DNA of 64,000 bases, taken from NCBI RefSeq assembly GCF_030684315.1, contig NC_081387.1, positions 23,058,647 through 23,122,646 on the forward strand, read 5' to 3'. The translations under genes and the position numbers were made by a program. Shown here piece after piece: positions 22,518-57,635 of the stretch. The first letter of the stretch is position 1. Each line of letters starts with the position of its first letter. The notes beneath the pieces were generated by a model, which searched no databases, was not told the origin of the DNA, and saw only the letters and a list, made by a program, of their open reading frames with translations. This stretch comes from Stegostoma tigrinum (Eukaryota).

Positions 22518-22641
22518 AGTGAAAACGAAAGTAAATATTTTCAGGGAGGGGCTGTCGTTGTGAATGTCTCCATTTTTTACACATTTGTCCGAGAAAAGGC
22601 GGAAAATGTTCGATCAGATTGTGGGAAAGTAAGAGGTGAGT
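22518..22641 (+). promoter_or_regulatory. ISRE promoter-like cassette with first-exon splice donor (copy B), 6.3 kb upstream of the BTN ATG
   Basis: AGTGAAAACGAAAGT (22518-22532) and donor GAG|GTGAGT (22636-22641), both conserved with copy A. Confidence 0.55.
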
Positions 22642-22907
22642 CCCAAATCCTCTTTAATTTCAGGAAGGGCTCATTCCCAGTGGGATCGGGTGGATTTTAG
22701 TCCCGCTGAAAGATCCCAATCAAATCCAAGGAGTTGAACGGGGAGCCGCTGGGGATTGTGCAGTGAAAAGGTGAAACCTTTCTCCAGTGTCTCTGATCAG
22801 CTGCACAGAGCCTGGAGCTGGTTCCTGTCAGTATAAGGGAACAGGAGGGAGAGGCAATGTCTAACATTCACTTCTCAGGGTCAGACACAGCGACTGGAAA
22901 GGGAGAC

Positions 22908-22917
22908 GGAAGTGAAA
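22908..22917 (+). promoter_or_regulatory. ETS-IRF composite element (EICE) GGAAGTGAAA; also at 2021-2030 and 58671-58680
   Basis: Exact GGAANNGAAA match conserved in three module copies. Confidence 0.4.
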
Positions 22918-24254
22918 AGGAGGAACAGAGTGAGGGCCATGAGATGGAACATGACCCATTGGGGTTTCTGTTTAAAGGCAAATAATTCAATCCTGGAGAC
23001 AATTGTGACGCTTCATGTCCTGACATAAACTTTAATTGAAGAGTTTCCCTTGTGTTGAGTCCATTCTCCGATTCCTTCTTTCCCATTTCGGGTTTTCTGC
23101 CTCCACCATCGAGAGCAGCTGCGTGGGCCCTCAGATCCGGAGCGCTCTCCATTCCTCAATCCATCAATTCCTCTCCACTTCCCTCCGCCTCCCTTCAGCT
23201 TGTTCCGAGAACCTCTCTGCAATTCTCTGCTCCTTTCAGCTGGTTCTTCAGATGTCGCTTTGACTGATCTTTTACTGAATTGATTTACATTCTGTTCGCT
23301 GCTTTCACTCTCAGTCTCTCCCTTGTTGAGCCCAGGATCTCCTGTGCTTTGCTGACTGCTCTCTCAGCATGGCCTGTCACCATCAGAGATTGATCCACAC
23401 AAACCCCCTCCCTCAGTTCCTGCTCACTCGACGGAATTGTGTCTGTAAATGGACAGTGTAATTCCTTGCTCCTTTTGTTAAAACACATCACTTCACAATC
23501 TGCTCAGTTAAATTCAATCTGTCAGTTGTCTGCGTATTTCTTTCCCAAGGATGTAAGAAAATCACTTGTGAACATGACTGTTGTTATCCATGTGTTTTTG
23601 TGGATGTTTGAATCAATGCCTGTCCTTGATGGAAACCTGGCCAAGTAGTGATGACAATTTCTCCGGAAATAAATCCTCCCCATCTGGCTGCACTTCCATC
23701 ATGAGACCCATCGAGGCTGTTCTGCTGGCCGTTTGGCCTTTTTCACACCTTTCCCTGACCCTCTGCTCTTTGGGTCCTCTCCTCCTGTTGAGCATCTCAT
23801 CTCATTTAAATTCTCATTCTAACCCATCCTTCCCAGTAATTTTCTCACTGATGGACCTTCACTGTTTTCCTCCCTCATCCTCTGCATTAAACAACTTCTC
23901 ATCTTTCTGATGAAAGGTCATCACCCTGAAACATTAACTTGCCTTCTGTCTCCCTAACAGATGAATAGATTGAGTTAATTCAGACTTTATTTTTTAATTT
24001 CTCATCATTGATAATTGAAGAATCTCCTTCTGAAATAGAATCAGATAGTTTTACAGCACAGAAACAGGCCCTTCGGCCCATTGCGTCCATGCAGATTCTG
24101 ATTCTGTTTTCCAGGCCTTGGCCTGTAGCCTTGTCTGCGATGGATCGTCGAGTGCTGATCAGAATTATTCTGAAATGTCTGAGGTTCGTGCTCTTTTAGG
24201 CAGTGAGTTCCAGATATTCATACATTCTGGGTGAAACAAACTTTCTTTACCTTC

Positions 24255-28903: not shown

Positions 28904-28991
28904 ATGAGATCCTTCAATCACTTCTTGCCCATGATGCAAGGAAGACATTTGAGTATTGTGCTGCTCCTTGGTTTTCACACTGTGCTGTCAG
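28904..28991 (+). CDS. BTN-like signal peptide exon (MRSFNHFLPMMQGRHLSIVLLLGFHTVLS)
   Basis: Acceptor ttttttgtttcag directly before ATG, hydrophobic core LSIVLLLGF, donor G|gtaagc in phase 1 matching the IgV exon. The start could instead be the ATG at 28931 or 28934. Confidence 0.8.
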
Positions 28992-31900
28992 GTAAGCAAA
29001 AGAATTGAACTGCAAATTATTACTGACACTTCAGGAGCAGCATCTCTTTACCAGATTAGCTAATTTAACATGAAGTTATTCACAATTAGTAAAGCGTTAA
29101 ATTAGGGTACTTTTCATGGGGAAACTGACAGATCCCTCACCCTGTGTATTCTTCAGTCTGTTCTTTCTCAAAAATCTCATTTAATGGTGTCATACAATCT
29201 GCTCCAATTGCATTCAGCAGCATCTAATTGCACAACTTGATGGAGAGTAAGTTCCCAGGGAAGGCCATGGATGACGGTGTGCCTACACTAAACATGATTG
29301 TATCCTTTCTCTGATTAGATACCGAGCCTCTGCTGTGTCTTTCTAGTATTTTCTCGTTTCAGATTTCTATCAGTTGTGGGTTTTCTTTCTTCTCATTGTT
29401 TCTGCAGCTCAGGGGGTGAAAAAGCTGAAGAAAAATTACACCTGCCTTTTCTTGTGCTCCGAATTCCCTATTTCTGTCCTCTTTTTTTAATCCCATGAAC
29501 ACAACAAAGGCTGTATCAGCATCATCCAGCTTGAAAATTTCCTTCCCTCTTTATTCCATTCAGATGTTTCTCAAAACTTGCTTCCTTGACCAGGCTTTTG
29601 GGTTTCTGCCCGAATCTTGTTTCATGTGGCTCACTGTCACATCTACATTCTGGTAAGTTTTCTCCTCCAGAAAAAGCAAATTTAACAACAAAAGTTAATT
29701 GTACAGACAATTTCATACAAAACTCACCATGATTTAAATAAGCAAATAATCTGTTCATAGCATTTATTGAGTGAGGAGTGTTGCTGCAGCATTGGGAGAT
29801 CTTTTTAAACATTTTTAAATAGTTTCATGGGATCTCTCACTCCCACTGGAACAGACACACTACACTGTGGATTCAATGTCTGAAGAAAAAGATGTCACTT
29901 CCAACGATATAACACTCTCTCAGAACTCATTGAAGTTTCAGCTCATATTGTGTGCTAAATTATAAAAGTGGAATTCAAATGTCATAAAAAGCCAGCGTTC
30001 CATTGATTTTGTACATTCGTTCCGGACTCAACAATACCTTAATTTCAAATTGTCATCCTTGTTTCAAATGCTTTAAATCCTCCCTGTGTCTGTAATCCCC
30101 TCCAACTTCACAACTAATGTTCCTCCTAATTTGTTTTCAGGTGTAGAGCAATTTTTTAAATTGTGTAGTCATGCATAGTTATAAAGTTAAAGGGACCAAT
30201 TTTTGCTGTTTGGACACTTCGGGTTACTGTGCCAGTTAATGGGGGGAGTCGTGCCCACAACTTTCTGGGAGATCTGCACTAATCTGGTTCTGCTGTGTTT
30301 GATATCCCCAAAATGAATCGCGCCATATTGGTGGCTGTACCTTCAGGCACCCAGGTCCTAATCTGTGTGTTACCCAAGACCATTCTCTTGGCCACCTGCC
30401 CTAATCTGTCACATATGGGTCAGTGTCCAAGTTACATCTCGAACATTCGTGTGAAAGTCCGTGGGACATTCTTGCAGGATGTAATGTTATGAGGTGGAGG
30501 TTGATCCCTCCTCCCCCGAGAACTAAAAACGAAATACACAACAGGAGTACCCCGCCTCATCATCTGTCAAAGCAGTGTGAAAAGTGGTGTCACCTGTCTT
30601 TCAGCAGCTTCTAGTGGTTAAATTAAATAAATCCCTAACACTCACTTTACAATCAACAAGTAACAATTTATTTATCTAACTCTTACCAGTGAACAGATGA
30701 ACTAAACTATTAACAAACGGAATAAACGCCTTCTAACTAGTAACTATTCCTGACGAACAAGATTCTATTGACCTGATGTTCTCATAAAACAAATCCCGCT
30801 CATAGAAAATAAAAATGGAATTTAGCCCCTTGAAATTACAGCGAGGTTACGTGTTTTCTGGAATGTTGTGTGCCTTTTCCGATGATTCTTTAGTGGTGAG
30901 TATTAACTAGTTGTGCCTTTGGTACCTTTATTTTTAGTTAGTGCTTTCTCTAAGACATAGAGAAAACTGTGAGAGCCAACAAGTCTCTCTTGAGAGCTGA
31001 GGACTGTTAACTCTGGCAGATGGCAGTCCTTGTTTTGTACCCTTGAAAACATATCAGTTTTTTACAATTGGATTCGTCCTATGTTGTCAAAGCCGTCAGA
31101 TTTAAATTTAATTGTTTCTGGTACATAAGTGCCTCGTTATTGATTGGCTAAATTCAAAAATGTGTTGCTTTAGTAACAAAACTGCTGTTTGGTCTGCTGC
31201 CTGTATGGCCTTTCAGTACAGATAATTCAATTCAGGCGCTCTCTGTATACTTGCAAACTTTCAAGCTGCCACTCACAGACATCCATTTTTCAAAGAAAAT
31301 GCACATCATTTTTTACAGGGACCACACAATGCTCCCCCCCGCCCCGTAGCATTTTACAAACACGAAATTCTAACTTGCTGCCTCCCAATCCACAAGTGCT
31401 CTGCCCAGCTTCGCAACAATAAGCACATGCTGCTTTTGTTTAAAACCATGAACAAACCTGAAGTGTATATGGAGAGCTTGGTTGCTCAGCAATAAAAGGA
31501 TGAACTGCAGAATTCAGATTTCCAGCATCCACTGTAATTTGCCGTCGTGAAGTAAGAACACTGCTTCATTGTTCAGGGAGCTGCATTTCCTGCTTCTGCC
31601 CTCCTGGTGATCACTTACCATGGTGGAGCCAGAGTAGAATATATTAAGGGGGTCTTGAGTTGGGCTTGTGGAGAATGTGGCCCATCACTGTACACTATGA
31701 TTCATTTCTTCTTGTGATTCATAAATTTGCCATTGAAATTTAGAAGACGAATAATCCTTAACTTTTTTTCCCAAAAACCCTCGATAACCTTTGATGGAGA
31801 ATTTAATTAACATCCCACCATTTTTTCACTCCATCCATCTCAGGTTCCTGGTCAGAATTTCCCTTTTGTCACCCAATCTGTTTCTGGAAACTGTTTAATG

Positions 31901-34900: not shown

Positions 34901-37900
34901 GACTTACATGTAGAGCTGCTGGGGTGGTGGTACTTCACATAGCTGGACTTGAGCCATATGTACCTGCAATTCAGGTTAGATGAGGATTCGCAGAAGTCAG
35001 CTACATAAGGTTGGTACCAATATACGACGCTGCCGTTTGAGGTACCATCAGCCTGTGTCATATTTCAGTGGAAAACAGAGAACATTTTACAAAGTCTACT
35101 CCACGTTGCTATTTATCTGGATGATGTGTTAATAACCAGGAAGAGCAGTAAAGAACACTTGGAGAACTTGGACATGGTTCTCAGATGTTTCTCCAGGGCA
35201 GGCGTACATCAGAGAGGGGAAAAATCTGTGTTGCAGATGCGCCCAAGTGATCTACTTGGGAGACAGGGTCGACAAGACTGGGTTATATCCGGTTGGAAGA
35301 TAAAGCAAGGGCGATCAAAGGTGCCCCAACTCCCAGTGTATGTCGGAGCTTTGGTCTTTCCTTGGGTTGGTGAATTATTACGGGAAGTTCAGACATAACC
35401 TGGCCTCCATCTTGTCACCCTTACGTCAGCTCTTGTAGAAGGATCACCTGAGGGAATGGTTGCACAGACAAGCTGTAGCCTTTAGGGAAGTGAAGAAGCA
35501 GTGAAGATTTTGGCTCACTACAATCCCAAGCGAGATCTTGTATTGACATGGAATGCCTTCATACACAGCACTGGGGTCGTGTGGGCCCACCAGTGGCCTG
35601 ATGGATAGTGCCTGCTTCCTGGACCTTGGCAGATGCCGAATGCAATTATGTCCAGATAGAGAAGAGGAGGTTTGGTGATCATTATCAGAGTGAGAAAGTT
35701 CCAACTGATGTAAATTTGTGACAGGAACGGACCACAAACCCCTGCGCAGTCCACCTAAGTAGGACCAGACTGAGTCGCCAATAGCTTCTGGTCAAATTCA
35801 GCAGTGGGCCCTTTTCTCAGTGCATACTATTTCAAATTGCAACACTGTCCAAGAGGCCAAGTGGCAAATCTGGATACTGTGAGCTGTCTCCTACTGGCAA
35901 ATACACCACCAGTGGTGCTGTTACTGGAAGAGTCCATACTGGTTTTGAACTTCCTGGGCACCTTTCTGGCCAACACTGACAACGTGACATTATGGATGCA
36001 AAAGGATTCTGTCTGGGCGAAACTAGAACCAGCCAGTAGTGATGGGGGAAACGAAAGGGCCATCACAACCAGAATCGAAACCTTTCTGTACCTGGCAAGA
36101 CCAAATCACCATAGAAGGCGGTGCATTTTTATGAGGAGCCAGAGTGATTGTCCCGAGTAAAGGTCACCCCCAGATACTGGCTGACCTCCACGAGGGTCAT
36201 CAAGGGGTTTCAAAAAACAAGATGGTTGGCAAGAAGTTATGATTGGTGGCCAGGATTGGATGCAGACAAAGCCGCATTCCTGGGACAATGCCCTCAGTGC
36301 TAACAAGGACAGAAGTTACCACCAGCAGCTTCCCCATGTTTTTGGGAATGGCTGGGTAAATGCTGACTTTGGTTACACATTGATTATGCTGCTCGTTTCA
36401 TGGGCCCCATGCTCCTTGTCATTGTGGATGCCTATTCAAAGTGGTTGACGTGCAGAGAGTTCATTTGTCAAACGTGGGATAACAGATAGAGGTAGAGAAG
36501 CTGTAAGCATCTTTTGCAGTGCATAGACTCCCAGAAGTGTTGGTCACAGACAAAGGGCCATCATTTACCAGCTTGGAATTCAGGTATTTCTGAAAGGCAA
36601 ATGACATTTCACTCCATACCATCCATTGTCCATGGTCTGTCAGAAAGAGAAGCCCAAACTTTGAAGGGCAGCTCAAAGAAGCAACCTACAGTATCATTCG
36701 AGACCAAACTGTTGTGGTTCCTATTTGATGATAGGACTGCCCCTTATGCAACTGCAGGGGTAGCTCTGGTTAAGTTGCTAATGCGAAGAAAACACCACAT
36801 CAGGTTAAATCTGATTTTTCCCAGAGCCTGAGATGGACATGCTGGGTATTGAAGCCTCAATGCCGTTATTGCCTGAAGAACAGAATGAATTTCTTCTGAG
36901 ATGTTCCGGGCACCAGAGGTGGGCTGTTTTCTGTCACGCACTACCTGCGTCCGAGGCAGAGTCCGGGGAAGCAGACCTGGAGGAAAAATGCCCCAGGAGA
37001 AGCTACAAGAAAGAGAACAGGTCTACATCCCTGGACTTAGAGGGGGAGGGATAGAGTGATTGTAACAAGGTCAGCCAGGTGACCCTCATAGAAAGGCTGA
37101 CACTTTGGGCCTAGACCCCTCCAGGCCCGAAACGTCAGCCTTCCTGCTCCTCTGATGCTGCTTGGCCTGCTGTGTTCATCCAGCCCTACACCTTGTTATC
37201 TCAGATTCTGCAGCATCTGCAGTTCCTACTATCTCTGAACCTCACAGAATGAGTTCCCTGAGTGGAGCTGTTAATCTGGCCCAATCAGGATCCCTCATTG
37301 ACAGATCGAAACTGGAGTGTCAGAGGTTCTGCTCACTCTGGGAGCCGACACTGAGGAAGTGCCAAATACTATGCATGTGTAAATGAAGGGTGACTGGTGA
37401 CTGAGTTATTTCAGTTGTGAGACCACATCTGCGTAATGTATACACTTCGGCCCACTGCTGAATTTGACCAGAAGCTATTGGCAACTCAGTCTGGTCCTAC
37501 TTAGGTAGACCATGCAGGGGCTTGTGGTCAGTTACTGTCACAAATTTACATCAGTTGGAACTTTCTCACTCTGATAATGATCACCAAACCTTTCCTAATT
37601 GAGTTAGATGCAGCTCAGAGAAGAGATTATCTTCTGAGGAAAGGGTGGACAAGTTGGACCTGTCAGAGTTTGAACGAGCGGTAGGTGATCCTATTAAATT
37701 AAAAGATCTTGTGGGGACAACAGGGTTGGTCCTGAAACTCTGTTTTCTCTTTATGAGTGGGATTAGAACTGGGGGGCACCACAGAGTGTCATTAGTCTGT
37801 GGAATTATCTTCCTCGGAATGTCATGTAGATAGGTTCAGTGCATATTTGTACACTGAGTTAGTTCTTAATTAATAAAACAGTCAAAATATCAAGGACAGT

Positions 37901-40900
37901 ACATCAGAAAGTGGGCTTCAGACTTACGATCCTCACCAAGTACATTGATATCATGGAGAACAAGAAGGAGAACAAGCACTGCTTCAGGATTTGAACCAGT
38001 AAATAATGCGACAAGGTGATATTGAAGATTCATTGTTGAAATTTATTGCGGAAGGAGTCCATTCAGTCCCTTGAGTCCACTCCATCCCTGTAACCCTGCA
38101 TTTCCCATGGCTAAAGCACCTATCCTGCACAGAACACCTGGAGGAAACCCTTGCAGACATAGGGAGAATGTGTAAACTCCATACACAGTCACCTGAGGAT
38201 GGAATTGAACTTAGGTCTCTGGCACTGTAAGCTAGCAGTGTTGACTATTGTGCCACCGTGCTGACCAAACTGCTTGATAAGGAAGCAACCCTTCGCTGTC
38301 CCTGCTGTATTGCTGTTTGGGGAAGCTGGGCTCGCTGGGGTTGCCATACCTATACTGGGCAGCTGAAACATTGTTGTGTCTGTGATAAATCCAGTCATGG
38401 TGCAGCTAACTACTGCATCACATGGACGTTCTGCAGGTCAGAAGGCCATCAACCAAAGGACTGCAGCCTGTATATTGGCCACTTCTCCAAGACCTGCCTA
38501 AAACACTGCGTCTGTTTTGCACAAGTCGCAAGAGAAAAGGAATATAGATACAAGGGCTCCTAGAGGCTGACAGCAGGGAATCTCTGTGTGCATCAGTCAT
38601 CTCTCAGTAAAGCCCAGCTCCAGGAGCAGGGAATCCCTCAGTAAAGCCCATCTCCGGGAGCAGGGAATCCCTCAGTAAATCCCAGCTGCAGGATCAGGGA
38701 ATCCTTCAGTAAACCCCAGCTCTGGGATGAGGGTATTTCTCAGTAAACCCAGCTCTGGGATTAGGGAATCTCTCAGTAAACCCCAGCGCCGGGAGCCGGG
38801 AATCTCTCAATAAACCCAGCTCCAGGATTAGGGAATCTCTCAGTAAACCTCAGCTCCAGGAACAGGGACTCTCTCAGTAAATCCCAGCTCCGGGATTAGA
38901 GAATCTCTCAGTAAACCCCAGCTCTGGGAGCAGGGAATCTCTTGATACATAATAATCCATCCAGCAGAACAGTGCTATCTGTGTATCCTAGGAGGAATTA
39001 GAGACGGGTTGTGGAAAAATACAAGAGGAAGCTGTCGAAAGATGGTCAGTGGTGAGGAGAGTTTCCGGAAAGAGCTTAGCAATACTGGGGGATGATGTTT
39101 TTGGCGTTTGGCTGTGTGATCATGGATTGTAGCTGAATGGCACATCCTCTGCCTATCGGAGGCGATTCCACTACACACCCTTTGGGCTGTGTTTCTGGAT
39201 GTGTTTGATATTATCAGAAATGGAACTGAAAACAATAACATCACAGCGGCAGATGTTGATGAAGGGATTCAGTGAAGTTGAGATGAAGGAGTCGAGAAAG
39301 ATTGAGAATAGGATAAAGGATCTGATTCAGATTCATTGTTATCCTTCTGGCTGAGAAACAGGGGACAGGCCTGGTGGTGTTGACATTGGCCATTTTAACA
39401 TTATCACCAACAGTTAAATTATTCACACAGGCAAGGCAAGGATAGTTCTATATTAATGCACAGAACAGTACAGTGCAGGAACAGACCCTTCGGCCCACTA
39501 TGTCTGTGCTGACCATAATGCCACTCTAAACTAATCGTATCTGCCTGCACGTGGTCCATTTCCCTCTACTCCCTGCTTGTCCATGTGTCTGTCTGAACCC
39601 CTCCAAAAAGTTGCTATTTTGTCTAAGCATCTGCTTCTATCACCTCCCCTGGCAGCACAGTAACCTCCCACCCTCTTTGTAACAAATATGCCTCACACAT
39701 CTCCTTTAAACTTTCCCCCTTCACCCTGAAGCTATGTCCCCTAGCATTTGACATTTCCAACCTGGGAAAATGACTCCAACTACCCACTTTATCCATGCCT
39801 CTCATAGTTTATCTACTTCTATCAGGTCTCCCGTCAGTTCTGATGCTCTACTGAAAATATTCCAAGTTTGTCCAACGTCTGTTTATTGCTAATACACACC
39901 AATCCAAGCAAAATGCTGGAAAACATTTTTTGCATCCTGTTCAAAAACACATCCTTCCTAACGTAGGACAACCAGAACTGCCCATTATACAACTGAGTTT
40001 CATGAGTGTTAGGACATTGTTGTTCTGTGTAGAAATCTAGGCTGTAAACTCATCTGCCTTACCTGTTAAACTGCTTGCATTAACATTAATACTATTAAGA
40101 TCACCAGTCCCGCTGTGTTCATTAACCTGATCCTGCCTGCTCTTCCAATGAGACTGATGACTTAACCTCTACCTCTTCCGCAATCACTCCACATGGTGAC
40201 CTACTGCCCACCCTCTGCCCCTCACCCCGCCACACTGGACTGAAATGACTACGTACTGTTGAAATTAAACATTTAATAATTTAAAATGAATATAAGTTTG
40301 AATAAGTGACTTTATGCTAATTGCAGAGTTTGGACAGCGGCCTTGGGTTGATGTGGAGGAGAACAACAAAGGACTTTGTGTTGTGTGTCGATCAGACGGA
40401 TGGTATCCTGAGCCACTGATACAGTGGGTAGATGGGAAAGGAGATGCGACAGTACAGTCTGAAACAGAATTCATTCAGGACCCCACAGGCCTCATCACTG
40501 TCCAGAGTCGTATTAATGTCCAAAGTGATTCTGTGAACAAGTTTTCATGTTTCATAGAAAACCAGTTATTGAGCAAAAGACGAGAGGCCCATCTCCAGAT
40601 ATCAGGTAGGTGTGTGTTTGGTAATCATTTGATGGGCGATATTTCTCCCCCCCCCCCCCCCTCCCCACCCCTGAAGACACTAACTCAGACTGGGTGTGAA
40701 TCCACGAGCACTGATTTGTCTCTGGACAATACCAAGAGGCAGCTTTTCATATTTGAAGCTGAAACATTGAGAAGTGAGTAGACTATCCACAGCACAGCTT
40801 CAGCTGGGCCTGATGTGTACTTACCCAATGTCCACATTTCATATTCCAGCTGTGGTCACTGGATAGAGATTAGGACCAAGGACACTAAGTACTGTGCTTT

Positions 40901-43900
40901 TGGCTGACTGTTATTAAGAGAGACAAATGTTTATTCATAACAGCACCTGAAATCCAAATGAATCTCAAGTTCTTTCAACAAAAATTCTTAATAGCAATGG
41001 TATTATTTACTTGTATGTCTTGGGAAGGAATCAGTAGCTGAGATTATTCCTGAAGGTTGATGAAATTATGATACTTTGAAGAAAATCCCAAATATTTGTT
41101 TCATAGGTTTGTGTCTTGCAGATCAAATACTGATTCTGTTCTTTTTAATCTTAGATGAGTTCTTCCCCAGAGTCAATGCTTGGCTTGTATGTTTCTTGGT
41201 GTTTCTTGGCCTTGTGATTGCGGCTATTACTATTGATGTAATAGTCCACAGAAAAGAAGATGAAAAGATTAAAGGTAGGAGCAAAATAGACATTTAAAGC
41301 TTGACATTTGTGGACGTACATTAAGGTTGAAATGAATTATAATTGTAACAGTTTCTGAATTATCTGAAAATTATTCTGAAATGGAAAGAATGTAATATGA
41401 ATGTGAAATTTTAATTTTTTTTAGCTTTCAGGATAATCCCTTGCTTAGCATGCTGCTTCTCTGCAAAGGAAGAAAAGTTATGTTAACTATCTCTGAGACA
41501 GAATAAGCCCTTTATTAAAGTTTCATTTTGGGACATGAGACTAAATGGTTAGACCAGCATTTATTGCCCATCTCTAGTTGCAGTTGAGAAGGTGGTGTTG
41601 AGATGTTTTCATGGTCCGCTGCACTCTGTGTAATATGGGTACATTCACAGTGTTTTATTTCTGTCACAGTGTGATATAACTGAGTGGCTTCCCAGGCCAT
41701 CTCAGAAGGCAGTTCAAAGTCAAACACTTTATTATGGGCCTGTCTGACCAATTTCCTTTCCTGAAGGATATTAGTGGAACAGTCAGTAACTTCATTCCCT
41801 CCACTATCTAAACTCAAATTGTGATTCAATCAGTGGTTGACCCCTTCAAACAAATTCGCTCTGAGGATGGAGTCAGTCAGGGATGGAGTGAGAAATCTGC
41901 AGGATGTGTGTGTGTGAACTTGCTGAGCAGTGAATTGGGGAGCAAGGCATGTAGGATTGTGCGATGTACTCTGTAAATAAATGTTATTGGTTGTAATAAA
42001 TTGGGACAGCAACTCAAAATTGTCAGAAAAGTCAGATAGGTACAGCCTCCAAAGAACATGATACTTTTTGGAAAATTAATGCCGTTCAGTACAGCTACAG
42101 AAGATAGATAGGGTACGATATGTAGAAAGGTTAAGACTGTTTTACCATGTGAATGAAATGGCGCAGTAGGTGAAAGAAAGTGATTTTGTTAACTGCATAT
42201 TGGGCACAGATTCCAGTCCGATTCGAAACTTAACATCCCTGAAAGTCCCTGATATCGAAATATTTTCAAAGATTGTAGGCCTTACTCAAAGGACACTGTC
42301 ACCCTAAGCCCCCAATGTGAATTTAGAACATTACCACTTTAATTCATGGGAGAGCCCCTCATGGTAAGAATCAAGGAGATTATGGAGCATTGTGATTTTG
42401 GACCAACTTTAAATAGGAGATTGCCATGCAATCATCCAAAAGAAGCTTAGTAAAAATTGTAAATGGATTTTAGAAGGTTGCTGGAGATTAGTTTAGGCAT
42501 GGAGAGTGTGGAGAAGGGCGAGCAGGAGATACAAAGTGCTTTGAGAAGCACAGCCCACCAGTTCGGATGGGAAACTGCAAGCAACAGTGGTGGTGTCCGG
42601 AGTGAAGGTGCTGGTGAAAGCAGGGAATGGATCCAGGAACCGGAATAGCCAGAGTGTACAGAAGGTTAAACCAACAGCCTTGGACAGGCCCTGAGGGTGC
42701 AGAGTGTTTCCAGTGTGGGGGAGGCCAACCTCCATAGCAGTGTTTTCAAGAAGGAGCTCACCTTCTGATGTTGAAGAGCACTGGGACCAGGCTGACGACA
42801 TGTGTAGGTTGGGGGTGAGCAGTGGCTGGTGGGCATTTACATGAATAGGCTCAACAGTGGCTCCAGTGAGGTACTGTCAGCAATGCCCTCAGCCCAGTGT
42901 CTGGTCAGGGCCCATGTTTAATGTGGTGTGATTAGCTCCAAGAGATCAAATTAAATTAACCAGAGACTTTTAGCATCAGAGAGGGTGAAGGGGGTCACAC
43001 AATCCAGAAGCTATCCCTAGGTTTTTCAGAGTTAGGCCTGTGCTCTGTGTGTTATTGGAGAAGTTGGAGATGGAGTTGGAGAGAATGAAAAGACCTTGGC
43101 ATCATTCACCCTGTGTGATTTTCTGAATGGGCAGCACCCATTGTGCCAGGAGTGTAACTGGATAAGTTCATTCCCATCTGTGGGGATCACAAGCTGGTGG
43201 CTATGATGTGGCTGGATAAGCATCTCGTTTCCAACAGGAAGATCGATATGGGAACGCAGCTGGGGCGGGGGGTGGGGGTGGTCAGACATTCTCAGAGTTG
43301 GACATGACTCATGCCGAGCAGCAGCTGGAGCTGTCAGAGCCTCACGGGAATATGTGACTATTAACACCCACAAGGAGTTGTATCAATTTACTCACTTGTA
43401 CTGTCTTCCAAAGAACCACGGAGAGCTTACTGCAAGACTTGCCAGTTATTGTTGTGTCTTGGATAATGTATCAACTAACCTCTTGTAAAAGAGCATTTGT
43501 TGATTTTGGGAGAAATATGAAGGAGTTCCCAGGAAGCAGGAGTGGACCTTAATAGAGAAGCACCTTCCAGGTTAATGAGGTGGTTTGCTTGGGTTATCAG
43601 GTGGATGCACAGGGTTTGCACCCCCATGGAGGACAAGGTGAGAACAATCAGGGAGACACTGGCCCCTCGGAATATCTCTGAACTCAAAACCTTTCTAGGA
43701 ATGGTTAAGTCCTGTGGGTGATTCCTCCCAAGCCTTTCCACAATGTTAGCGCCACGACAAAAATAACGAAAGAAACAACAGGGCCTGGGTCGGACCACAA
43801 ACTGAGGCTTTTAAACAGGTCCAGAAGGTGCTTCAATTATTGTGTTTCCTGGTTTGCTTCAACCAGCAAGATATTACTGACATCCTCATATGGTGTTGGG

Positions 43901-46900
43901 GCAGTTTTATCCCACACAATGGATAATGGGGCAGATAGACCTGTGGGAAATGCAGCAAAAATACTGTCGGACGCAGAGAAGAGCTATTTGTGAATAAGAG
44001 AGACGACAGAGCAGTTATTTGTGGCAACAAAATGTTCCACCAATATCGAGACTGGAGACATTTCATCATGTGGTGACAGACCACAAGCCACTGTTGGGAA
44101 TATAAGGTGATTTGACCAATAGCTTTGGCCTTTGAACATTGTCCTGAGACCTCAATAGCCAATGCTGATGCCCTCATCATGTTCCCTGACCAGAGATAGG
44201 CACAGGCCCCACAGTGTCGGAAGAGATGGGAATGGCCATGAATTTTCAAACTACTTCATCTGTTTTAGCTCAACAAAGTAAGTACTGGGCTAACAGAGAC
44301 CCACAATTCTCAAAGGAGAAGCAGATAATAGTGTGTGGCTGGCAAAACAAAAGATTTTTTAAAAGAAATTAAACCTTACAAGTTGGGGAAAAGTGAGCTT
44401 CGTTGTGAGCATGGTATTGTCCTTTGGGGATTGAAGGCTTTTATTCTTGGGTCGGAAGAAATTTGTTCCTGAAATATTTACAAAAGACGTATCCGGGTGT
44501 ATTTAAAATGAATAAAATGGTTTCAGGAAGCTCTGTTGGCAGTCTAGCATTGAAGCAGCAGTTAAAGATGCGGTAAAGTGCTGTGATCAGTGCTAATTTC
44601 AGCAGACGTTACCCGTCCCAAGCCCACAATTGTGAGGTGAGTGACAGTCCTTGATATCAAGGCTGCATTCGACCAAGTGTGGCATCGGGCTGCTGTCACA
44701 AAATTGGAATCAATGGGCAAACTGACTGCTGATTGGAGTCATACCTGACGCATAGGAAGATGGTCATGGTTTGTGGAGGTCAGTCAGTTCCAGAACATTT
44801 CTGCAGGATTTCCTGAAGGTAGTGTCCTTGACCCAACCATTTTCAACTGCTGCATCAATGATCAAGCAATTGACCAGAGGAGATCCAATCAGTGATGAAT
44901 ATTGTTGAAATAGCAAGGCCTTATGAATTGGAAAGATTAAAATCCATATGTCCAAGTGATAAAGCATGGATAAAGAGGACAGCTAAACAACTGAAGATCA
45001 TGAATATGTACCAGAAATATAATCCCATCACTGCCTATGTTTCACCCCAATGTGCATTAAGTGATGTATTTAACTGAACAGTTTTGTTGAAATTATATCA
45101 TGATGAGAACGTCTAGTGAAAGATGAAAAACATCATTTGTAAATTCTGACAGATCTTCAGATTGAGATTTAGAATGTTAAAATGTTGTTCTGATCCCAGC
45201 TGATGGTTTTCTGGACAAGTCTGAACTGTGTTCTGTTTGTGTCCCGATGTTGCTGCTATCGGGTGCGGCGGTAGCTGCAGAATCTCACTCACTAACACGT
45301 TCCTGTGTTCTTGTCTTTCAGAACTACAGGAATTCCTCACTTTGGAAGGTAAGTTATTTCAGAACCATGTCAGGATTCTGATTTACAGACACTGAGTAAG
45401 AAAATTCCAGTTTCACTTCATGGGAATCCAGGAATTCTGAACAAAGAGGATGGAATTTTATAAGGGTCTGAGCGCTGTGGTCTGTGGTGAGAAATTGATG
45501 GAATTGTGTGAGGTGTCCATTGAGACCCATTTCAATGTCACTGCCTGGCATTGAGGTGGGATTCTCACAAAGCTGCAATGTGTGTTGCCTATGAAAGGGG
45601 AATATTGCGAATGAACGACCATATTAACTGCATACCTCACCTCATTAATATACAGCCTTCTATCGCACCAAACCTGTCAGACAGGCAGGATACTGAGAAT
45701 TCTCGACATGGAGATCCAAACATGTACCTGCTGACTTCAGCTCACTGCTCACTCCAAAGGGATCTCAATGTTGGAAATTAGACACCAACCTCTCAGGGCA
45801 TGCCGCATGTAACCCATGTCCATGGACATTGGCATCCAACATGTGCCAGCCTTGAAATACCCTCATGGCACATCTCCAAACATTGTAAAACTGCTGCTTG
45901 GACACTGTCCACTCAGAGGCACACACCCAGCTCATGGACTGGGCGAAACTGCATCGCTGGGATGTTTACTTGTTCTTTTAACCCTCACTCACTCTCAGCT
46001 TATCTGGATATTAGCAGCATTCCTGCTTTTTCATTAACATTTACTCCTTGTCCCTCAGCCAGAGATACAATGCTCACAGTTCTGCTGTTTAACCGTTTAG
46101 TGGAGACACGGAGCCAAGAAGCTGGTCAGATTGTCAGCAGAACACAGTCAAGCCAAGGGAGGTAGCCTTCAGCCAGAGGATATGGTCAGTCAGTAGCATT
46201 ACCCCTCATTAGCTGTGAGGGATCAACTATCAGCTAGTACCCCACCCAGCCATATGGACACTTACTGACTAGTGGGGACTGTTTTCCTCCTGAATGGGAG
46301 AGAGGTAGTTGTTAATGGAGACGAAAGTGCTCTTACTGTTGGTGTAGGTGTGAAGGTGTCCTGAGGAAATGTGTTGGCAGCACAGAGAACAAACAGGGTT
46401 TGTGGTGTCAGGTGTTGGTGTGGGTGATGGAGAGTGAGTGAAGATGTTCCAGTCCGTGGTAAGTGTGGTAAAGCATGAGCCTTGGTGGGAGGTGGGTGCA
46501 GCAGCAGAGACAGAGTGAGTGTGTGGTCATGGAGAGAAGATGGTGGATCACATGGTGGTGGAGAGGAGAATGTCGCTGATGTGCTGGCAGTCCTCCAGAC
46601 GCTGAGACTGTACTCACCCATGTGCCACCCTCTGACCAGGCAGGGACTGGCATCATGACCATCTCGGCTGGTTCTGGGGGAAGAGGGTATCTACACCACC
46701 CCGTCCAGCGGGACCGTCCGGTTCCTCTCTGCTCCATCTGGGGAAGATGGCAGGAACTGTATGGGGCAGCTGCAGGCTGACAGACCTGTCTGGCTGCACA
46801 ACAGCTTTGCAGAGATGGCACCGCTGCCAGGGATCAGGTCAGTTCTGAGATGTCCCAGCAGTGGCGAGTTGCTTCAGAAATGGTGGGTGGTAGGATGGGG

Positions 46901-52900: not shown

Positions 52901-55900
52901 GGCAGGTTAGCACCTACTGCAAAACCCTCCTTTCAGAGGCTTTCCCATCATTGCGGAGACTCCCATTGTGCCAGCAAATTTCCAGATGATCCAAACCCCT
53001 CAATATCCCGGAATATGGAATGCCGGATACTTCTTGGGTTGTTCTTTCTTTTTGAATATTTTGAACATCACGCTGAACGCTGCTCCCAGCGGCAAAATGT
53101 TACGGTTCAATCATGGATTTAGTGGGATGTAATAAAATTAAGTGATTCAAATGAAAAAACTTATTGGTGGTAATATATATGTATGAAGTGATGATGAAAT
53201 AAATAGTAAGATCTATTAAACAGTAAATATATGTAATGTAGTAGATAAATATGTTTGTTTCTATAACAGTAAATATACATTAAGCAGTAAAGGTGAAGGG
53301 GAAGTACAACGAGATCTGGGTGTTCTTGTACATCAGTCAATGAAAGCAAGCATGCAGGTACAGCAGGCAGTGAAGAAAGCTAATGGCATTCTGGCCTTCA
53401 TAACAAGAGGAGTTGAGTATAGGAGCAAAGAGGTCCTTCTGCAGCTGGACAGGGCCCTGGTGAGAGCGCACCTGGAGTATTGTGTGCAGTTTTGGTCTCC
53501 AAATTTGAGGAAGGACATTCTTGCTATTGAGGGAGTGCAGTGTAGGTTCACGAGGTCAATTCCTGGAATGGCGGGACTATCATATGTTGAAAGATTGGAG
53601 CGACTGGGCTTGTATATACTTGAGTTTAGGAGGATGAGAGGGGATCTGATTAAGATAATTAAAGGATTGGACACTCTGGAGGCAGGAAGCACGTTTCCAC
53701 TGATGGGTGAGTCCAGAACCAGAGGACACAGTTTAAAAATAAGGGGTAGGCCATTTAGAACAGAGTTGAGGAAAAACTTCTTCACCCAGAGAGTGGTGGA
53801 TATATGGAATGCTCTGCCCCAGAAGGCAGTCGAGGCCAAGTCTCTGGATACTTTCAAGAAAGAGATAGATAGAGCTCTTAAAGATAGTGGAATCAAGGGT
53901 TATGGGGATAAGGCAGGAACAGGATACTGATTGTGGATGATCAGCCATGATCATAATGAATGGTGGTGCAGCTTGAAGGGCCGAATGGCCTACTCCAGCA
54001 CCTATTGTGTATTGTCTATAATCTAGATACGTTAGAAACACATGTAGGTTAATGCGTTATTTAAGTTAATGAGTGGATCTGTTAGCCTAAATTACTTTAG
54101 ACAAGTTTAACAATGGCTCTCACTGCCCTCCTGCCTGTCAGGGACCACATTTTACAGCGGCTGGTCTGGAGAGCCCGGGGTTCCTGGCCCCATTTGAAAT
54201 CCCAGTCCAAGCAACATTCCCTGAATAGGGCAAAGTGCCTGATGTGATGCCTGTGCTGAATCGAAGATTATGTGCCGCATCATTATTCCCTGGAACTTTC
54301 AGTACTTTCCCAGCCATTTCACTGGACAGAAAAACATCCAGGTGGCTCTGTGTGACAGCCAAGCAGGACAGTACGCACAGTCAGGGTCACATCGTCTGCT
54401 CATTCCTCAGTCAAAACAAGCTGCTTTCACATGAAGCCTGTTTCCCACATATGTTCCACTTTATTTCAATTGCTCATTGTCACGTGCACTTAACCCTTAA
54501 TGAGCTGGTTTGAAGATATTTTTAATCCTGCTACTACATTTGGTAAGTCAGGACCAGAGGGAACCCATTGCTTTGTGGGAGCAAAAAGTAGGGGGTGAGG
54601 GTAGAAATGTGGGAGATGGCCCTGTTGAATATAGTAATGGGGAATCCTCGGCTGCGGAAGAAGATGGATGTTTCTGAGGCCTCCCTGAGGAAGGTGGCAT
54701 TTTCAGACCATTGTGATGGAAGCGGAAAAACTGGGAAAATGGGAAGGAGTTCTTACAGGAAGCAGGCTGTGAGAATGTATAGACCAGGTAACTGTGGGAG
54801 TCGGTGGGTTGTTAGTGGATATTGGTGGCCAGTCTGTCCCCAGAAATGGTAACAGAGATGTCAAGGAAGGGATTGGAGAAGTCAGAGATGGATCAGATGA
54901 AGGTGAGGGCAGGATAGAAATTGGAAATGAAACTGATAAATTTTTCCAATTCAGATTAATTCCAGGGATGAAAGGGCTAACCAACAGCGAGCAGTTGAAT
55001 AACTGGGATCGTACTCACTGGAATTCGGAAGAATGGGTGGGGGGTATCTGATTGAGGGATATAAAATATTAAAGGGAGTTGATAAAGTAGACATTGAACA
55101 GACAATTCCACTTGTGGGACAGTCTCAAACACGAGGTCACAGATATAGAGTCGGGGAGGAGAAACTATATGTGAATCTGTGGAAATCACTGCCCCAGAGT
55201 ACAGTGGAGGCAGAATCAATCAACAGACTGACAAAAGAAATAGATATGTTTCTGAGGAAAAGCAGGTTAAAGGGCTGTGGGAAGCAGGTAAGGAAAGTGG
55301 AGGTGAGACCAGGATAGGATCAGCCATGACCTTGTTAAATAGGCAGCACTGCCTACTTCTGCTCCTAATTCTGATGCTCCTCTGTTGAGAATGATACCAG
55401 ACTTGAAACATGAACTCTGTTTCTCTCTCTCCACGCACTGCCAGAGCTGCTGAGTTTCTCCAGTTTTCTCTATGTTTGTTTGAGATTACCAGCATGAGTA
55501 GCATTTTGTCTTTCCCCAAATATTACATTTACCTCAGGGATTTACCCGTTCACACGAGCTGTTAAAGTAATTGTGATCCTGGACCTTTATATCACAGAAT
55601 ACAGAAACTGACTGCTGTGAGAAAGGGAGCACAATTTACCTTCCCCCGACTCTCCTGCACTTACAAGGGACTTATCAGATTTGAAATCTGACTTCACATT
55701 TAGAAAACAGAATATTGAACAGTCCAGCACAGGAACAGGCCCTTCGGCCCTCCATATCTATTGCTGACCATGGTGCCATTCTGAACTAATCCCATCTGCC
55801 TGCACATGGTTGGTATCCCCCATTTCCTGAAGGGGACCTGATCCGAATCTCCTGTCAGAATTGCACAGCTTGATCTTCAGGTAAGTAAAGGGGACAGTGT

Positions 55901-57334
55901 GTTAATCTGAGTGTGAGTGTAACTCCTCAGAAAATCCAGACCAGTGACATGATTTAGTGTTGGAAAGATGGCAATCAAACTGCACAACTCTCCCCCTCCC
56001 CTGTCCTGAACCCCCTCATCCCAGTCACATTCCTCACTGCCCCCTCAATTTCCCAATGGATCCCTGCACCACCCTCAACCCCAATATGTTCTCTCACTGT
56101 TCTAATACCCCACTGACTCCTGTCCATCTCCCCTCAGCCAGTCCCCTGTCCTGCCCTCCCCTTCACCAATACGAGAGATTACCCCCTTCCCAGTTTCCCC
56201 CACAAGATCCCTCCCACGCTTCAGATACGAAACAAGACCACTCCAATCCCAGGGAGACTCCAATCCCAGTCTTCCCATGAACCCCTCTGCTCTCCATCAG
56301 CCTGGACACCAATCCCACAGCAAACCTGCTCCCCCTTCACTTTCCCCAATCCCACACGTGACTTGCTAAGTCCTGCCCGAACCCATGACAACTTCCCAAT
56401 CCCCCAGTGAATCCCATTCCCTTACACCCCATGAGTGCCCTGCCCATTGCCCCCTGCATTACCCCTCACACTCCACCTGATGCCCCCATAAGACAACATC
56501 CCCTCCTTAGGACCTTCAGTGAGTCCCCTCACAATCCTTGATCCTCAAATAACACCCAAGCCCCTGACATCCTCACCCTCTCCCCAACAGACACACACAC
56601 ATTTCCCCCCAACTCAAACATTCCTACCAACCCCCCCCTCCTCACACATACACACAGACATGCACACGCACGCACGCACACACATATCCCCCCAACGTGA
56701 ACATTCCCACCATCCCCCTCCCTCCTATACACACAGACACTGACACATACCCACAGAGTGTCCCTAATTCCCTGTATTTTCTCTCCCAGTCTCTGTGACC
56801 CTGGATGTGGAAACAGCGTATCCTGAGCTCGAGGTGTCTGAGGATCTGAAGAGTTTGAGATGGACCGGGACCCGAAGGGATCTCCCTGACACCGGGAAGA
56901 GGTTTACACACTGGGAGTGTGCCCTGGGATCAGAGGGATTCACATCGGGGAGACATTACTGGGAGGTGGAGGTGGTGGGGAATCGGGTCTGGAGACTGGG
57001 AGTAGCCTCAGAGTCTGTGGAGAGGAAGGACTGGGTCAGACTGATCCCTGAGAATGGATTCTGGACCATTGGGCGGAAATGGGATCAGTTTTATATAAAC
57101 AACACTCAATCCCCTCTCCCTGTCGGTCAGGTCCCCGGGAAAGTGGGAGTTTATCTCAGTTATGAGTCTGGGACAGTTTCATTTTACAACGTGGACACCA
57201 AGTCCCATCTCCACACCTTCACTGGGAATAAATTCACTGGGAAACTTTATCCTTTCTTTGGGAGTTGGCATTTAAACCAGTTTCTGAGAATCTGCTCTAA
57301 GGGGCGGGGGCTCCCTGACGTCACAGTGACCTGA
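28904..57334 (+). CDS. Butyrophilin (BTN/BTNL)-like type I membrane protein, 7 coding exons: join(28904..28991,32108..32455,40327..40605,41155..41274,45322..45348,49570..49596,56790..57334), 477 aa
   Basis: Manually spliced. Domain order SP-IgV-IgC-TM-linker-B30.2 is diagnostic of butyrophilins. All junctions are GT-AG and phase 1. Exon lengths 88+348+279+120+27+27+545=1434 nt, open to TGA at 57332-57334. Further micro-exons could have been missed. Confidence 0.9.
32108..32455 (+). CDS. BTN-like IgV (B7/MOG-type) exon
   Basis: Within ORF 32086..32475: VGEDVVLDC...LEVRWF...VHLY.GGQD...YQGRTELF...GNASLKL...SDEGIYTC. Acceptor ttgccag, donor G|gttggt, 348 nt. Confidence 0.95.
34555..34846 (-). 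mobile_element. tRNA-derived SINE (HE1/V-SINE-like) nested in the Gypsy pol
   Basis: Minus: ggcagcacggtgtctcagtggttagcactgc...cccgggttcgattcc...tgtgtggactttgcac. Further copy about 38050-38262. Confidence 0.88.
37094..37239. mobile_element. Short Penelope-derived insertion inside the 3' LTR
   Basis: pLTR sequence ggcccgaaacgtcagc...gcagcatctgcagttcc flanked by cctcatagaa / cctcacagaa. Confidence 0.8.
38601..38942. repeat. Minisatellite, 10 copies of a 33-34 bp unit (CTCTCAGTAAACCCCAGCTCCGGGAGCAGGGAAT)
   Basis: Direct count of tandem units. Confidence 0.95.
39460..39990 (-). mobile_element. CR1 LINE 3' end
   Basis: Minus ORF MRGMDKV...FPRLEMSNARGHSFRVKG. Confidence 0.8.
40327..40605 (+). 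CDS. BTN-like IgC (CD80-like C2-set) exon
   Basis: Within ORF 40314..40781: G.RPWV...VCRSDGWYPEPLIQWVD...GLITVQS...FSCFIENQLL...HLQIS. Acceptor ttgcag, donor G|gtaggt, 279 nt. Confidence 0.95.
41155..41274 (+). CDS. BTN-like transmembrane exon (DEFFPRVNAWLVCFLVFLGLVIAAITIDVIVHRKEDEKIK)
   Basis: BTN-typical D.FFPR..W stalk, hydrophobic helix and charged stop-transfer segment. Acceptor ctttttaatcttag, donor G|gtagga, 120 nt. Confidence 0.92.
41850..44630 (+). mobile_element. Heavily decayed Ty3/Gypsy element in the TM-to-linker intron
   Basis: gag start atgatactttttggaaaatta; RT remnants gtgactattaacacccacaaggagttgtatcaattt (TINTHK.LYQF); RNase H remnants (SSYGVGAVLSH..DNG.DRPV, TDHKPLL). Boundaries approximate. 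Confidence 0.75.
45322..45348 (+). CDS. BTN-like juxtamembrane micro-exon 1 (ELQEFLTLE)
   Basis: Polypyrimidine acceptor ttcttgtctttcag, 27 nt, perfect donor AG|gtaagt, phase 1/1, amphipathic. Confidence 0.8.
49570..49596 (+). CDS. BTN-like juxtamembrane micro-exon 2 (GFNKLEINR)
   Basis: Acceptor ttcttgttccacacag, 27 nt, donor G|gtaagt, phase 1/1. Same size and position as the pre-B30.2 exon of BTN genes. Confidence 0.8.
53290..54020 (+). mobile_element. CR1 LINE 3' part, relatively intact
   Basis: ORF 53340..53930: KKANGILAFI.RG.EYRSKEV...HLEYCVQFWSP...FFTQRVVDIWNALP. Confidence 0.93.
54530..54955 (-). mobile_element. Decayed Penelope-like RT fragment
   Basis: Degenerate similarity to 13700-14140. 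Confidence 0.55.
54965..55375 (+). mobile_element. CR1 LINE 3' fragment
   Basis: LIEGYKILKGVDKVD...TRGHRYR...NLWKSLPQSTVEAES. Confidence 0.8.
55985..56755. repeat. C-rich/CA-rich low-complexity intron segment preceding the B30.2 exon
   Basis: Strong C/A skew with (CA)n runs at about 56590-56750. Confidence 0.7.
56790..57334 (+). CDS. B30.2 (PRY-SPRY) terminal exon
   Basis: VSVTLDVETA...VSED...DLPD..KRF...LGSEGFTSGRHYWEVEV...W.LGVA...PENGFW...KVGVYL.YESG.VSFYN...HLHTF...LYPFF. Acceptor ttttctctcccag, stop TGA. Confidence 0.95.
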
Positions 57335-57569: not shown

Positions 57570-57635
57570 AATAAATCAGACAGAAATGTAAATGTCAGGA
57601 TTAAAATAAAAAATAAATAAATGAATTGTGTCTCT
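57570..57635 (+). terminator. Candidate polyadenylation signals of the BTN-like gene
   Basis: AATAAA at 57570, 57605, 57612 and 57616, followed by GT/T-rich sequence, about 240-290 nt after the stop codon. Confidence 0.55.

What the first reader, a model, noticed from the sequence alone, without database searches (positions are those of the whole stretch)
28904..57334. Complete, apparently intact butyrophilin-like receptor with a B30.2 domain in a probable shark genome
Seen: seven phase-1 exons join into a stop-free 477-aa SP-IgV-IgC-TM-linker-B30.2 protein spread over 28 kb of repeats. The SP exon and both micro-exons are not in the ORF track. Known: mammalian BTN/BTNL proteins select and activate gamma-delta T cells, and cartilaginous fish are the earliest-diverging lineage with gamma-delta TCRs. 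Inference: a candidate for an ancient BTN/gamma-delta axis. Whether this locus is already annotated cannot be judged here.
Basis: partly seen in the sequence, partly recalled or inferred. Interest (0 to 1): 0.7.

Follow-up and report, generated by a model that had tools for sequence, protein, structure and literature searches.

The report
Shark butyrophilin sharing TRIM sensor exon
This is an intact, already catalogued zebra-shark butyrophilin gene whose inside-the-cell binding domain resembles that of one of the shark's own TRIM ubiquitin ligases more than the same domain in related sharks' butyrophilins, which likely means the two immune gene families keep exchanging this part, while a role in gamma-delta T cell control remains untested.

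Summary
In detail: seven canonical phase-1 exons give a stop-free 477-aa SP-IgV-IgC-TM-B30.2 protein. [quoted passage not shown] The BTN3A1 phosphoantigen pocket is absent (0 of 6 residues). What I did not find in print: IgV domains define two old elasmobranch BTN lineages (40-46% alike), but B30.2 domains group by species, mixing both lineages with TRIM ligases. This gene's B30.2 is 87% identical to a zebra-shark TRIM versus 79-80% to its IgV-orthologues; a TRIM-versus-BTN split is rejected (AU p 1e-36), and the pocket-equivalent columns are hypervariable. Likely ongoing gene conversion or exon replacement, as known for zebrafish NLR-B30.2 genes. Splicing was not tested with transcripts; ligands are unknown.

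The parts
28904..28991 (+). First coding exon, signal peptide (aa 1-29); ATG directly after a splice acceptor, second in-frame ATG at 28934
   Evidence: hydrophobic window aa 16-37, GT donor; matches residues 1-29 of P0003
32108..32455 (+). IgV exon (aa 30-145), Cys53-Cys127, one N-glycan sequon at 109; elasmobranch BTN lineage A
   Evidence: Pfam V-set E 1.7e-14; best single-domain PDB matches BTNL8, MOG, BTN3; tree
40327..40605 (+). IgC exon (aa 146-238), Cys166-Cys220 plus an extra Cys163 seen only in carpet-shark lineage-A proteins
   Evidence: Pfam C2-set_3 E 7.7e-20; alignment
41155..41274 (+). Transmembrane exon (aa 239-278)
   Evidence: Kyte-Doolittle 19-mer peak 2.8 at aa 247-269; 72% identical to bamboo/epaulette shark homologues
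45322..45348 (+). 27-nt juxtamembrane micro-exon 1
   Evidence: best of 53 candidates; present in P0003
49570..49596 (+). 27-nt juxtamembrane micro-exon 2
   Evidence: best of 53 candidates; present in P0003
56790..57334 (+). Terminal exon, B30.2 (PRY-SPRY) domain and stop; member of a B30.2 pool shared with TRIM genes and lineage-B BTNs of the same species
   Evidence: Pfam PRY/SPRY; 87% to TRIM P0080, 88-91% to lineage-B BTNs; clade 100/98
57570..57617 (+). Candidate polyadenylation hexamers (57570, 57600, 57612)
   Evidence: motif scan; not tested by reads
22602..23007 (.). Candidate upstream regulatory block, one of three 95%-identical copies in the window, each with an ETS-IRF-type motif; link to this gene is inferred only from position (6 kb upstream)
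   Evidence: self-BLAST, alignment, motif positions; the motif name is recalled

Best explanation
This is an intact single-pass butyrophilin-family receptor gene of the zebra shark whose intracellular B30.2 exon is likely kept nearly identical to those of neighbouring TRIM ligase and other butyrophilin genes by repeated gene conversion or exon replacement, so that it would couple recognition of a variable cytoplasmic ligand to an immune-cell contact made by its outer Ig domains. Shown: exon structure, domains, identity with the NCBI model, two old Ig lineages, species-wise mixing of BTN and TRIM B30.2 domains, hypervariable pocket columns, loss of the phosphoantigen pocket. Inferred: DNA exchange as the cause (no paralogue DNA was available); position on the MHC chromosome (shown for sawfish homologues, inferred for zebra shark); dimerisation through IgC/TM, possibly lineage A with lineage B as in BTN2A1/3A1 or BTNL3/8; inside-out signalling when the B30.2 pocket is occupied; the pocket binding pathogen- or stress-derived ligands of the kind TRIM B30.2 domains bind; the outer partner being a lymphocyte receptor (gamma-delta TCR about one chance in three).
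For: Intact gene = P0003. IgV tree of 77 rows: lineage A (34 rows, 100/99) and lineage B (17 rows, 100/98), each with sharks and rays; this gene sits with bamboo and epaulette shark BTNs (98/88). B30.2 tree of 42 rows (25 BTN, 17 TRIM): this gene sits with three zebra-shark lineage-B BTNs and zebra-shark TRIM P0080 (100/98); horn-shark, lamniform and white-shark clades likewise mix BTN and TRIM (95/96, 99/98, 98/93). Identities to this gene, IgV then B30.2: P0078 45/91, P0081 40/88, P0084 41/88, TRIM P0080 -/87, IgV-orthologues P0006 87/80 and P0008 85/79. AU test: TRIM versus BTN split p 1e-36; trio of IgV-orthologues p 0.003; label changes BTN/TRIM 17 (shuffled mean 13.5, no signal), taxonomic order 5 (shuffled mean 25.8, 0 of 500 as low). 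22 of 26 BTN B30.2 domains are closer to an own-genus TRIM than to any other-genus BTN. Species-specific C-terminal tails after the domain are shared across families. No TRIM N-terminal exon anywhere in the window (6 TRIM queries), so the exon has no other owner here. Pocket-equivalent columns 2.2 bits versus 0.77 overall (2 of 20000 permutations; 105-138 of 20000 among variable columns only). Sawfish MHC chromosome 34 carries 11 butyrophilin-like genes, several interleaved with A33-like/NF7-like TRIM genes in the class III region (supplement of PMC10751288). Same mechanism described for zebrafish NLR-B30.2 genes (10.1101/027151).
Against: All comparisons are of automated protein models; no paralogue DNA, so no conversion tracts, dS or dN/dS. 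TRIMs were the best 120 of 1370 hits to this very domain, so they are enriched for close ones; other shark TRIMs form a separate clade at about 50%. Not every BTN takes part: 10 of 40 elasmobranch BTN B30.2 rows are divergent and were left out of the pool counts, 4 of 26 compared rows are exceptions or ties, and the closest IgC paralogue P0017 (92%) has only 75% in B30.2. AU tests used the non-mixture model and groups fixed after a first tree was seen. Pocket columns are surface loops, which vary in any B30.2 family; no structure-based surface control. Exchange may be neutral. No ligand, dimer or expression data.
Confidence: 0.6

Rival explanations
1. It is an ancient gamma-delta TCR ligand working like BTN2A1/BTNL3: the IgV CFG face binds germline V-gamma and selects or activates shark gamma-delta T cells, whatever the B30.2 binds.
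For: BTN-type IgV; the arginine equal to BTN2A1 R65 is invariant in 22 of 22 lineage-A rows and the E135 position is E or Q in all 22; two old lineages could pair like mammalian heteromers; BTNs and gamma-delta TCRs share a gnathostome distribution and MHC linkage. Compatible with the best explanation.
Against: R124, Y126 and E135 of BTN2A1 are T, F and Q here, though BTNL3/8 also differ at two of these; R65 is kept in non-TCR-binding BTN1A1 too; squamates keep BTNs without gamma-delta TCR; no orthology with BTN2/3 or BTNL3/8; phosphoantigen pocket absent.
Confidence: 0.33
2. The B30.2 sharing is a neutral by-product of ectopic recombination among dozens of B30.2 exons packed on one chromosome; the receptor's function rests on the Ig domains and the B30.2 is a generic scaffold.
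For: Dense interleaving of TRIM and BTN genes in sawfish chr34; near-identical duplicated blocks in this window; B30.2-less elasmobranch BTN models exist (P0009, P0010, P0015, P0035-37).
Against: Variation in the pool is concentrated at pocket-equivalent columns, also among BTN rows alone (2.1 vs 0.8 bits), while framework columns are nearly invariant; the frame is intact.
Confidence: 0.27
3. The join to the terminal exon is a prediction artefact: the exon belongs to a different (TRIM) gene, and the true transcript ends after the micro-exons.
For: Such mis-joins are documented for zebrafish B30.2 genes; several elasmobranch models are obvious multi-gene fusions; a 434-N gap lies upstream in the window.
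Against: No RING/B-box/coiled-coil exon in the 64 kb; phase-1 junction and spacing conserved in homologues of many species; BTN and TRIM domains of one species are alike but not identical, so they are separate exons; NCBI's model makes the same join.
Confidence: 0.06

Closest known systems
[quoted passage not shown]
   Same: Identical, 477 of 477 residues.
   Different: Nothing in sequence; the name 1A1 is a best-hit label, not orthology.
Mammalian BTN/BTNL family (BTN1A1, BTN2A1, BTN3A1, BTNL3/8/9)
   Same: SP-IgV-IgC-TM-micro-exons-B30.2 layout; IgV 31-42% and B30.2 36-49% identical; short juxtamembrane part as in BTNL8 and BTN1A1.
   Different: Elasmobranch IgVs form their own group (97/88); no phosphoantigen pocket; mammalian BTN B30.2 domains group by gene across species whereas shark ones group by species with TRIMs (no mammalian TRIMs were sampled).
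Chondrichthyan butyrophilins of Marenco, Olive and Pontarotti 2026 (PMC12841164)
   Same: Same family; reported in epaulette shark, white shark, stingray and elephant shark, MHC-linked in the first three, class-specific expansions.
   Different: Zebra shark not sampled; main text has no domain-wise trees, no two-lineage split and no TRIM comparison (supplementary Figure S2 not seen).
Zebrafish NLR-B30.2 and finTRIM families (10.1101/027151; PMC2657112)
   Same: Old N-terminal lineages with a B30.2 exon homogenised across them by gene conversion, variable surface loops, exon shuffling between TRIM and another family.
   Different: There the partners are cytosolic NLRs and the NLR-finTRIM exchange is old (55-65% similar); here a surface receptor and E3 ligases share 80-92% identical domains within each shark or ray genus.
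Elasmobranch A33-like / NF7-like (TRIM39/bloodthirsty-type) TRIM ligases
   Same: B30.2 exon 87% identical, shared tail, same chromosome-length contig.
   Different: RING-B-box-coiled coil instead of Ig-Ig-TM; no such exons in the window.

Membership tests
Butyrophilin (BTN/BTNL) family | Signal peptide, IgV, IgC, one TM helix, each on its own phase-1 exon | tested here: met
Butyrophilin (BTN/BTNL) family | BTN/MOG-type rather than plain B7-type Ig domains | tested here: met
   IgV best single-domain scores BTNL8 85, MOG 85, BTN3 76 bits versus CD276 64; Pfam BTN IgC model E 7.7e-20. No B7 outgroup in the tree.
Butyrophilin (BTN/BTNL) family | Short juxtamembrane exons followed by a single B30.2 exon in frame | tested here: met
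   (genomic); transcript not tested
Butyrophilin (BTN/BTNL) family | MHC linkage | tested here: inconclusive
   No MHC marker in the window; the sawfish lineage-A homologue P0023 lies on a contig of the same length as the LOC entries listed on MHC chr34; zebra-shark chromosome not checked (no genome held)
Orthologue of a mammalian BTN subfamily (1A1, 2A, 3A, L3/8, L9) | Groups with that subfamily in the IgV tree | tested here: not met
BTN3A1-type phosphoantigen sensor | His351, His378, Lys393, Arg412, Arg418, Arg469 (PMC5829056) | tested here: not met
   W, R, R, Y (or I), Q, G: 0 of 6; none of 61 pool rows keeps more than 2
BTN2A1/BTNL3-type V-gamma ligand | CFG-face residues R65, R124, Y126, E135 (PMC7083227) | tested here: inconclusive
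   R, T, F, Q: 1 of 4 identical; BTNL3/8 also differ at two, so not diagnostic
BTN2A1/BTNL3-type V-gamma ligand | Direct binding to and activation of gamma-delta TCR | not testable with these tools
   needs shark TCRs and binding assays
BTN heteromers (2A1/3A1, L3/L8) | Obligate pairing of two paralogues | not tested
   two old lineages exist; no complex prediction run, since a pass would follow from likeness to solved BTN pairs
TRIM E3 ligases | RING-B-box-coiled coil upstream of B30.2 | tested here: not met
B30.2 concerted evolution as in zebrafish NLR-B30.2 | Discordant trees of N-terminal domain and B30.2 | tested here: met
B30.2 concerted evolution as in zebrafish NLR-B30.2 | Low synonymous divergence and conversion tracts at DNA level; dN/dS above 1 in loops | not testable with these tools
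   no paralogue DNA held

The most novel reading that the evidence does not exclude
In sharks and rays the MHC chromosome holds a common, continually re-shuffled repertoire of B30.2 recognition exons used by both cytosolic TRIM ligases and cell-surface butyrophilins, so that a specificity won by a restriction factor is handed to a surface receptor that reports the same intracellular pathogen ligand to lymphocytes; mammalian phosphoantigen sensing by BTN3A1 would be one frozen outcome of this older plug-in sensor system.
Probability: 0.2. Interest if true: 0.75.

Novelty: new variant of a known kind. Interest (0 to 1): 0.4.

Why it matters
The gene as such adds little: it is annotated and shark butyrophilins are in print. 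The domain history matters more. It says that B30.2-based trees and best-hit names cannot give BTN orthology in cartilaginous fish, that ancestral butyrophilins probably did not sense phosphoantigens, and it gives a concrete handle on the open question of what non-mammalian butyrophilins detect: pairs of a TRIM and a BTN with near-identical B30.2 frames and differing pocket residues can be assayed side by side. The two old Ig lineages also name a specific candidate heteromer.

Tried and rejected
Whole genome not held, so no synteny or paralogue DNA. Accession numbers of the cluster could not be looked up. Sequencing runs: no RNA holder listed, and no reads were laid, so the six junctions, the 5' exon and tissue expression stay untested; neither result is evidence either way. 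Alternative micro-exons: 11 other short AG..GT candidates and 51 rejected by homologue score. A second BTN or a TRIM gene in the window: none. Rfam on 56,000 of 64,000 bases: 0 matches. Of 18 long ORFs outside the gene, 5 match reverse transcriptase, RNase H or GIY-YIG fragments and 13 nothing. Orthology to BTN1A1 (the database name) rejected. Phosphoantigen sensing of BTN3A1 type rejected. Structure and complex predictions not run: folds are clear from solved relatives. Two Greenland shark preprints mention butyrophilin only for rockfish; a chondrichthyan TLR preprint has no mention; the zebra-shark genome paper has no MHC mention. A 2022 Immunogenetics review on B30.2 receptor expansions in fish, recalled, is not held and may bear on novelty.

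Full report
Observation. The seven exons named under parts join with GT..AG introns, all in phase 1, into 1434 nt and 477 aa with one terminal stop. Pfam finds V-set, the butyrophilin IgC model C2-set_3, PRY and SPRY on the single exons. The two 27-nt exons are the best of 53 stop-free candidates when scored against 8 homologues from other species. The ATG follows an acceptor AG directly, so a non-coding exon lies upstream. The rest of the window is mostly retroelement debris: 5 of 18 long ORFs tested match RT, RNase H or GIY-YIG models; Rfam finds nothing in 56,000 of 64,000 bases; no second BTN exon and no TRIM N-terminal exon is present.

Identity. The IgV exon finds 42 proteins among 260 candidates, 37 of them named proteins of 18 shark and ray species. 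[quoted passage not shown] So the species is very probably the zebra shark and the locus is annotated; what evidence underlies NCBI's model I could not see. At least five more BTN-like models and one TRIM of that species lie on a contig of the same length, 31.9 Mb.

What is in print. PMC12841164 (whole text read, supplements not) reports butyrophilins in all jawed vertebrates tested, including epaulette shark, white shark, a stingray and elephant shark, on the MHC class I chromosome in the first three, proposes an ancestral BTN-MHC complex, and notes that squamates keep BTNs without gamma-delta TCRs. PMC11788884 (passages and section 4.1) dates the Ig-SPRY fusion to the gnathostome ancestor; PMC13262535 (passages) lists the family as gnathostome-wide. 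In the supplement of PMC10751288 (search rows and part 16 of 98) sawfish MHC chromosome 34 carries 11 butyrophilin-like genes, six of them among TAPBP, C2/BF, ATF6B, CYP21A2, TNXB and many A33-like/NF7-like TRIM genes; the main text does not mention them.

Orthology. In a careful IgV tree of 77 rows the 51 elasmobranch rows and 26 bony-vertebrate rows separate (97/88; midpoint root, no B7 outgroup, few columns). There is no orthology to BTN1A1, BTN2, BTN3 or BTNL3/8/9. Elasmobranch IgVs fall into two lineages, A (34 rows, 100/99, includes this gene) and B (17 rows, 100/98), each holding sharks and rays, so the split predates their divergence. This gene's nearest IgVs are from bamboo and epaulette sharks (98/88).

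The terminal exon tells another story. It finds 1370 proteins, of which the best 120 were listed; most are elasmobranch TRIM ligases. From these I cut 195 domains, built a quick tree of 101 (86 of them plus 15 bony-vertebrate BTNs) and a careful tree of 42. This gene's B30.2 groups with three zebra-shark lineage-B BTNs and the zebra-shark TRIM P0080 (100/98). Identities: 88-91% to proteins whose IgV is only 40-45% alike, 87% to the TRIM, 79-80% to its IgV-orthologues. Horn shark, lamniform, white shark, sawshark and skate rows mix BTN and TRIM in the same way, and a gar TRIM and BTN pair up too (98). Holding TRIMs apart from BTNs costs 347 log units (AU p 1e-36); holding the IgV-orthologue trio together is rejected at p 0.003; the BTN/TRIM label has no phylogenetic signal (17 changes, shuffled mean 13.5) while taxonomic order has (5 versus 25.8, 0 of 500). 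In a pool of 61 of the 101 rows (dropped: 23 bony-vertebrate rows, 2 elephant-shark TRIMs, 5 divergent TRIMs, 10 divergent BTNs), 22 of 26 BTN domains with an own-genus TRIM are closer to it than to any other-genus BTN; same-species BTN-TRIM pairs average 82.8%, cross-species BTN-BTN pairs 71.7%. Tails beyond the domain are species-specific and shared across families. Against: TRIMs were sampled by likeness to this domain, all rows are automated models, AU groups were set after the first tree and used the simpler model, 10 of 40 elasmobranch BTN domains stand outside the pool, and paralogue P0017 is an exception.

Binding surfaces. The six BTN3A1 pocket residues listed in PMC5829056 (passages) correspond to W338, R365, R380, Y398 or I399, Q403 and G454 here: none identical; no pool row keeps more than two. 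These same columns are among the most variable in the pool (2.2 versus 0.77 bits; 2 of 20000 permutations, 105-138 of 20000 among variable columns only) while the framework is almost fixed; there is no control for surface exposure. Of four BTN2A1 residues essential for V-gamma-9 binding (PMC7083227, passages) only the R65 equivalent is kept; it is invariant in 22 lineage-A rows but also present in BTN1A1, and BTNL3/8 differ at two of the others, so this test is inconclusive. PMC7348870 (passages and section 5.2) was used for the mammalian mechanism.

How it likely works. By family knowledge: a type I membrane glycoprotein that dimerises through IgC and the membrane-proximal part and presents the IgV CFG face to a partner cell. 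Inferred: the B30.2 pocket binds a cytoplasmic ligand, not a phosphoantigen, of the kind the sister TRIM domains bind, and occupancy changes the outer conformation or clustering; recurrent conversion or replacement of the terminal exon among dozens of neighbours on the MHC chromosome spreads and recombines pocket variants across receptors and ligases. I give 0.95 to an intact BTN gene, about 0.85 to DNA exchange between families, about 0.33 to a gamma-delta TCR partner, and 0.6 to the statement as a whole. Rivals: a pure gamma-delta ligand, neutral homogenisation, and a mis-joined model.

Closest mechanism known. Zebrafish NLR-B30.2 genes show conversion of B30.2 across old groups with diversifying loops (10.1101/027151, passages), and finTRIM and NLR B30.2 exons were shuffled (PMC2657112, passages). 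I found no report of BTN-TRIM sharing in cartilaginous fish in searches (open-licence PMC and bioRxiv only); a recalled 2022 review on B30.2 receptor expansions is not held, and Figure S2 of PMC12841164 was not seen. Earlier scan notes: none for this genome; one on another shark gene ending in B30.2, unchecked.

Verdict. Real, intact, already annotated; the gamma-delta idea is published and unproven. The added point, a B30.2 exon pool shared between butyrophilins and TRIM ligases, is well supported at protein level and makes this a variant of a known kind. Transcripts were not tested. Interest 0.4.

Noticed in passing
window 1715-2120, 22602-23007, 58365-58770 (longer matches 1508-2120~22395-23007, 1715-3211~58365-59897, 236-1246~21376-22394, 416-725~63661-64000): A non-coding block in three copies at about 95% identity, each with one GGAAGTGAAA motif (2021, 22908, 58671; ETS-IRF type, name recalled). 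Looks like a duplicated promoter or a small mobile unit; two copies have no detected gene behind them.
   Followed up: partly
window 40327-40605 (aa 163): An extra cysteine three residues before the canonical IgC cysteine occurs only in carpet-shark lineage-A BTNs (and one sevengill protein nearby); other sharks mostly have arginine. It could allow an inter-chain disulphide.
   Followed up: partly
P0003 versus P0017: The two zebra-shark lineage-A paralogues are 92% identical in IgC but 76% in IgV and 75% in B30.2, so exon-wise mosaicism also affects the Ig exons.
   Followed up: partly
P0108 (gar model), residues 424 and 924 onward: A gar TRIM B30.2 and a gar BTN B30.2 from one fused model are sisters (98), hinting that the sharing is not limited to cartilaginous fish.
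   Followed up: no
window 20750-21180: Assembly gap of 434 N beside a 28-30-bp CA/TC-rich tandem array, upstream of the gene.
   Followed up: no
window 38599-38942: 34-bp minisatellite, 10 copies, in the IgV-IgC intron.
   Followed up: no
window 5976-7211, 13980-14675, 35009-36160, 43709-43993, 53220-53930, 60863-61999: Fragments of LINE-type, Penelope-type (GIY-YIG) and LTR-type retroelements; class names inferred from Pfam domains, all partial.
   Followed up: partly
P0001, P0002, P0005, P0020, P0024: Several elasmobranch BTN models carry tandem repeated IgV or IgC domains, and some lack B30.2 altogether (P0009, P0010, P0015, P0035-37).
   Followed up: no
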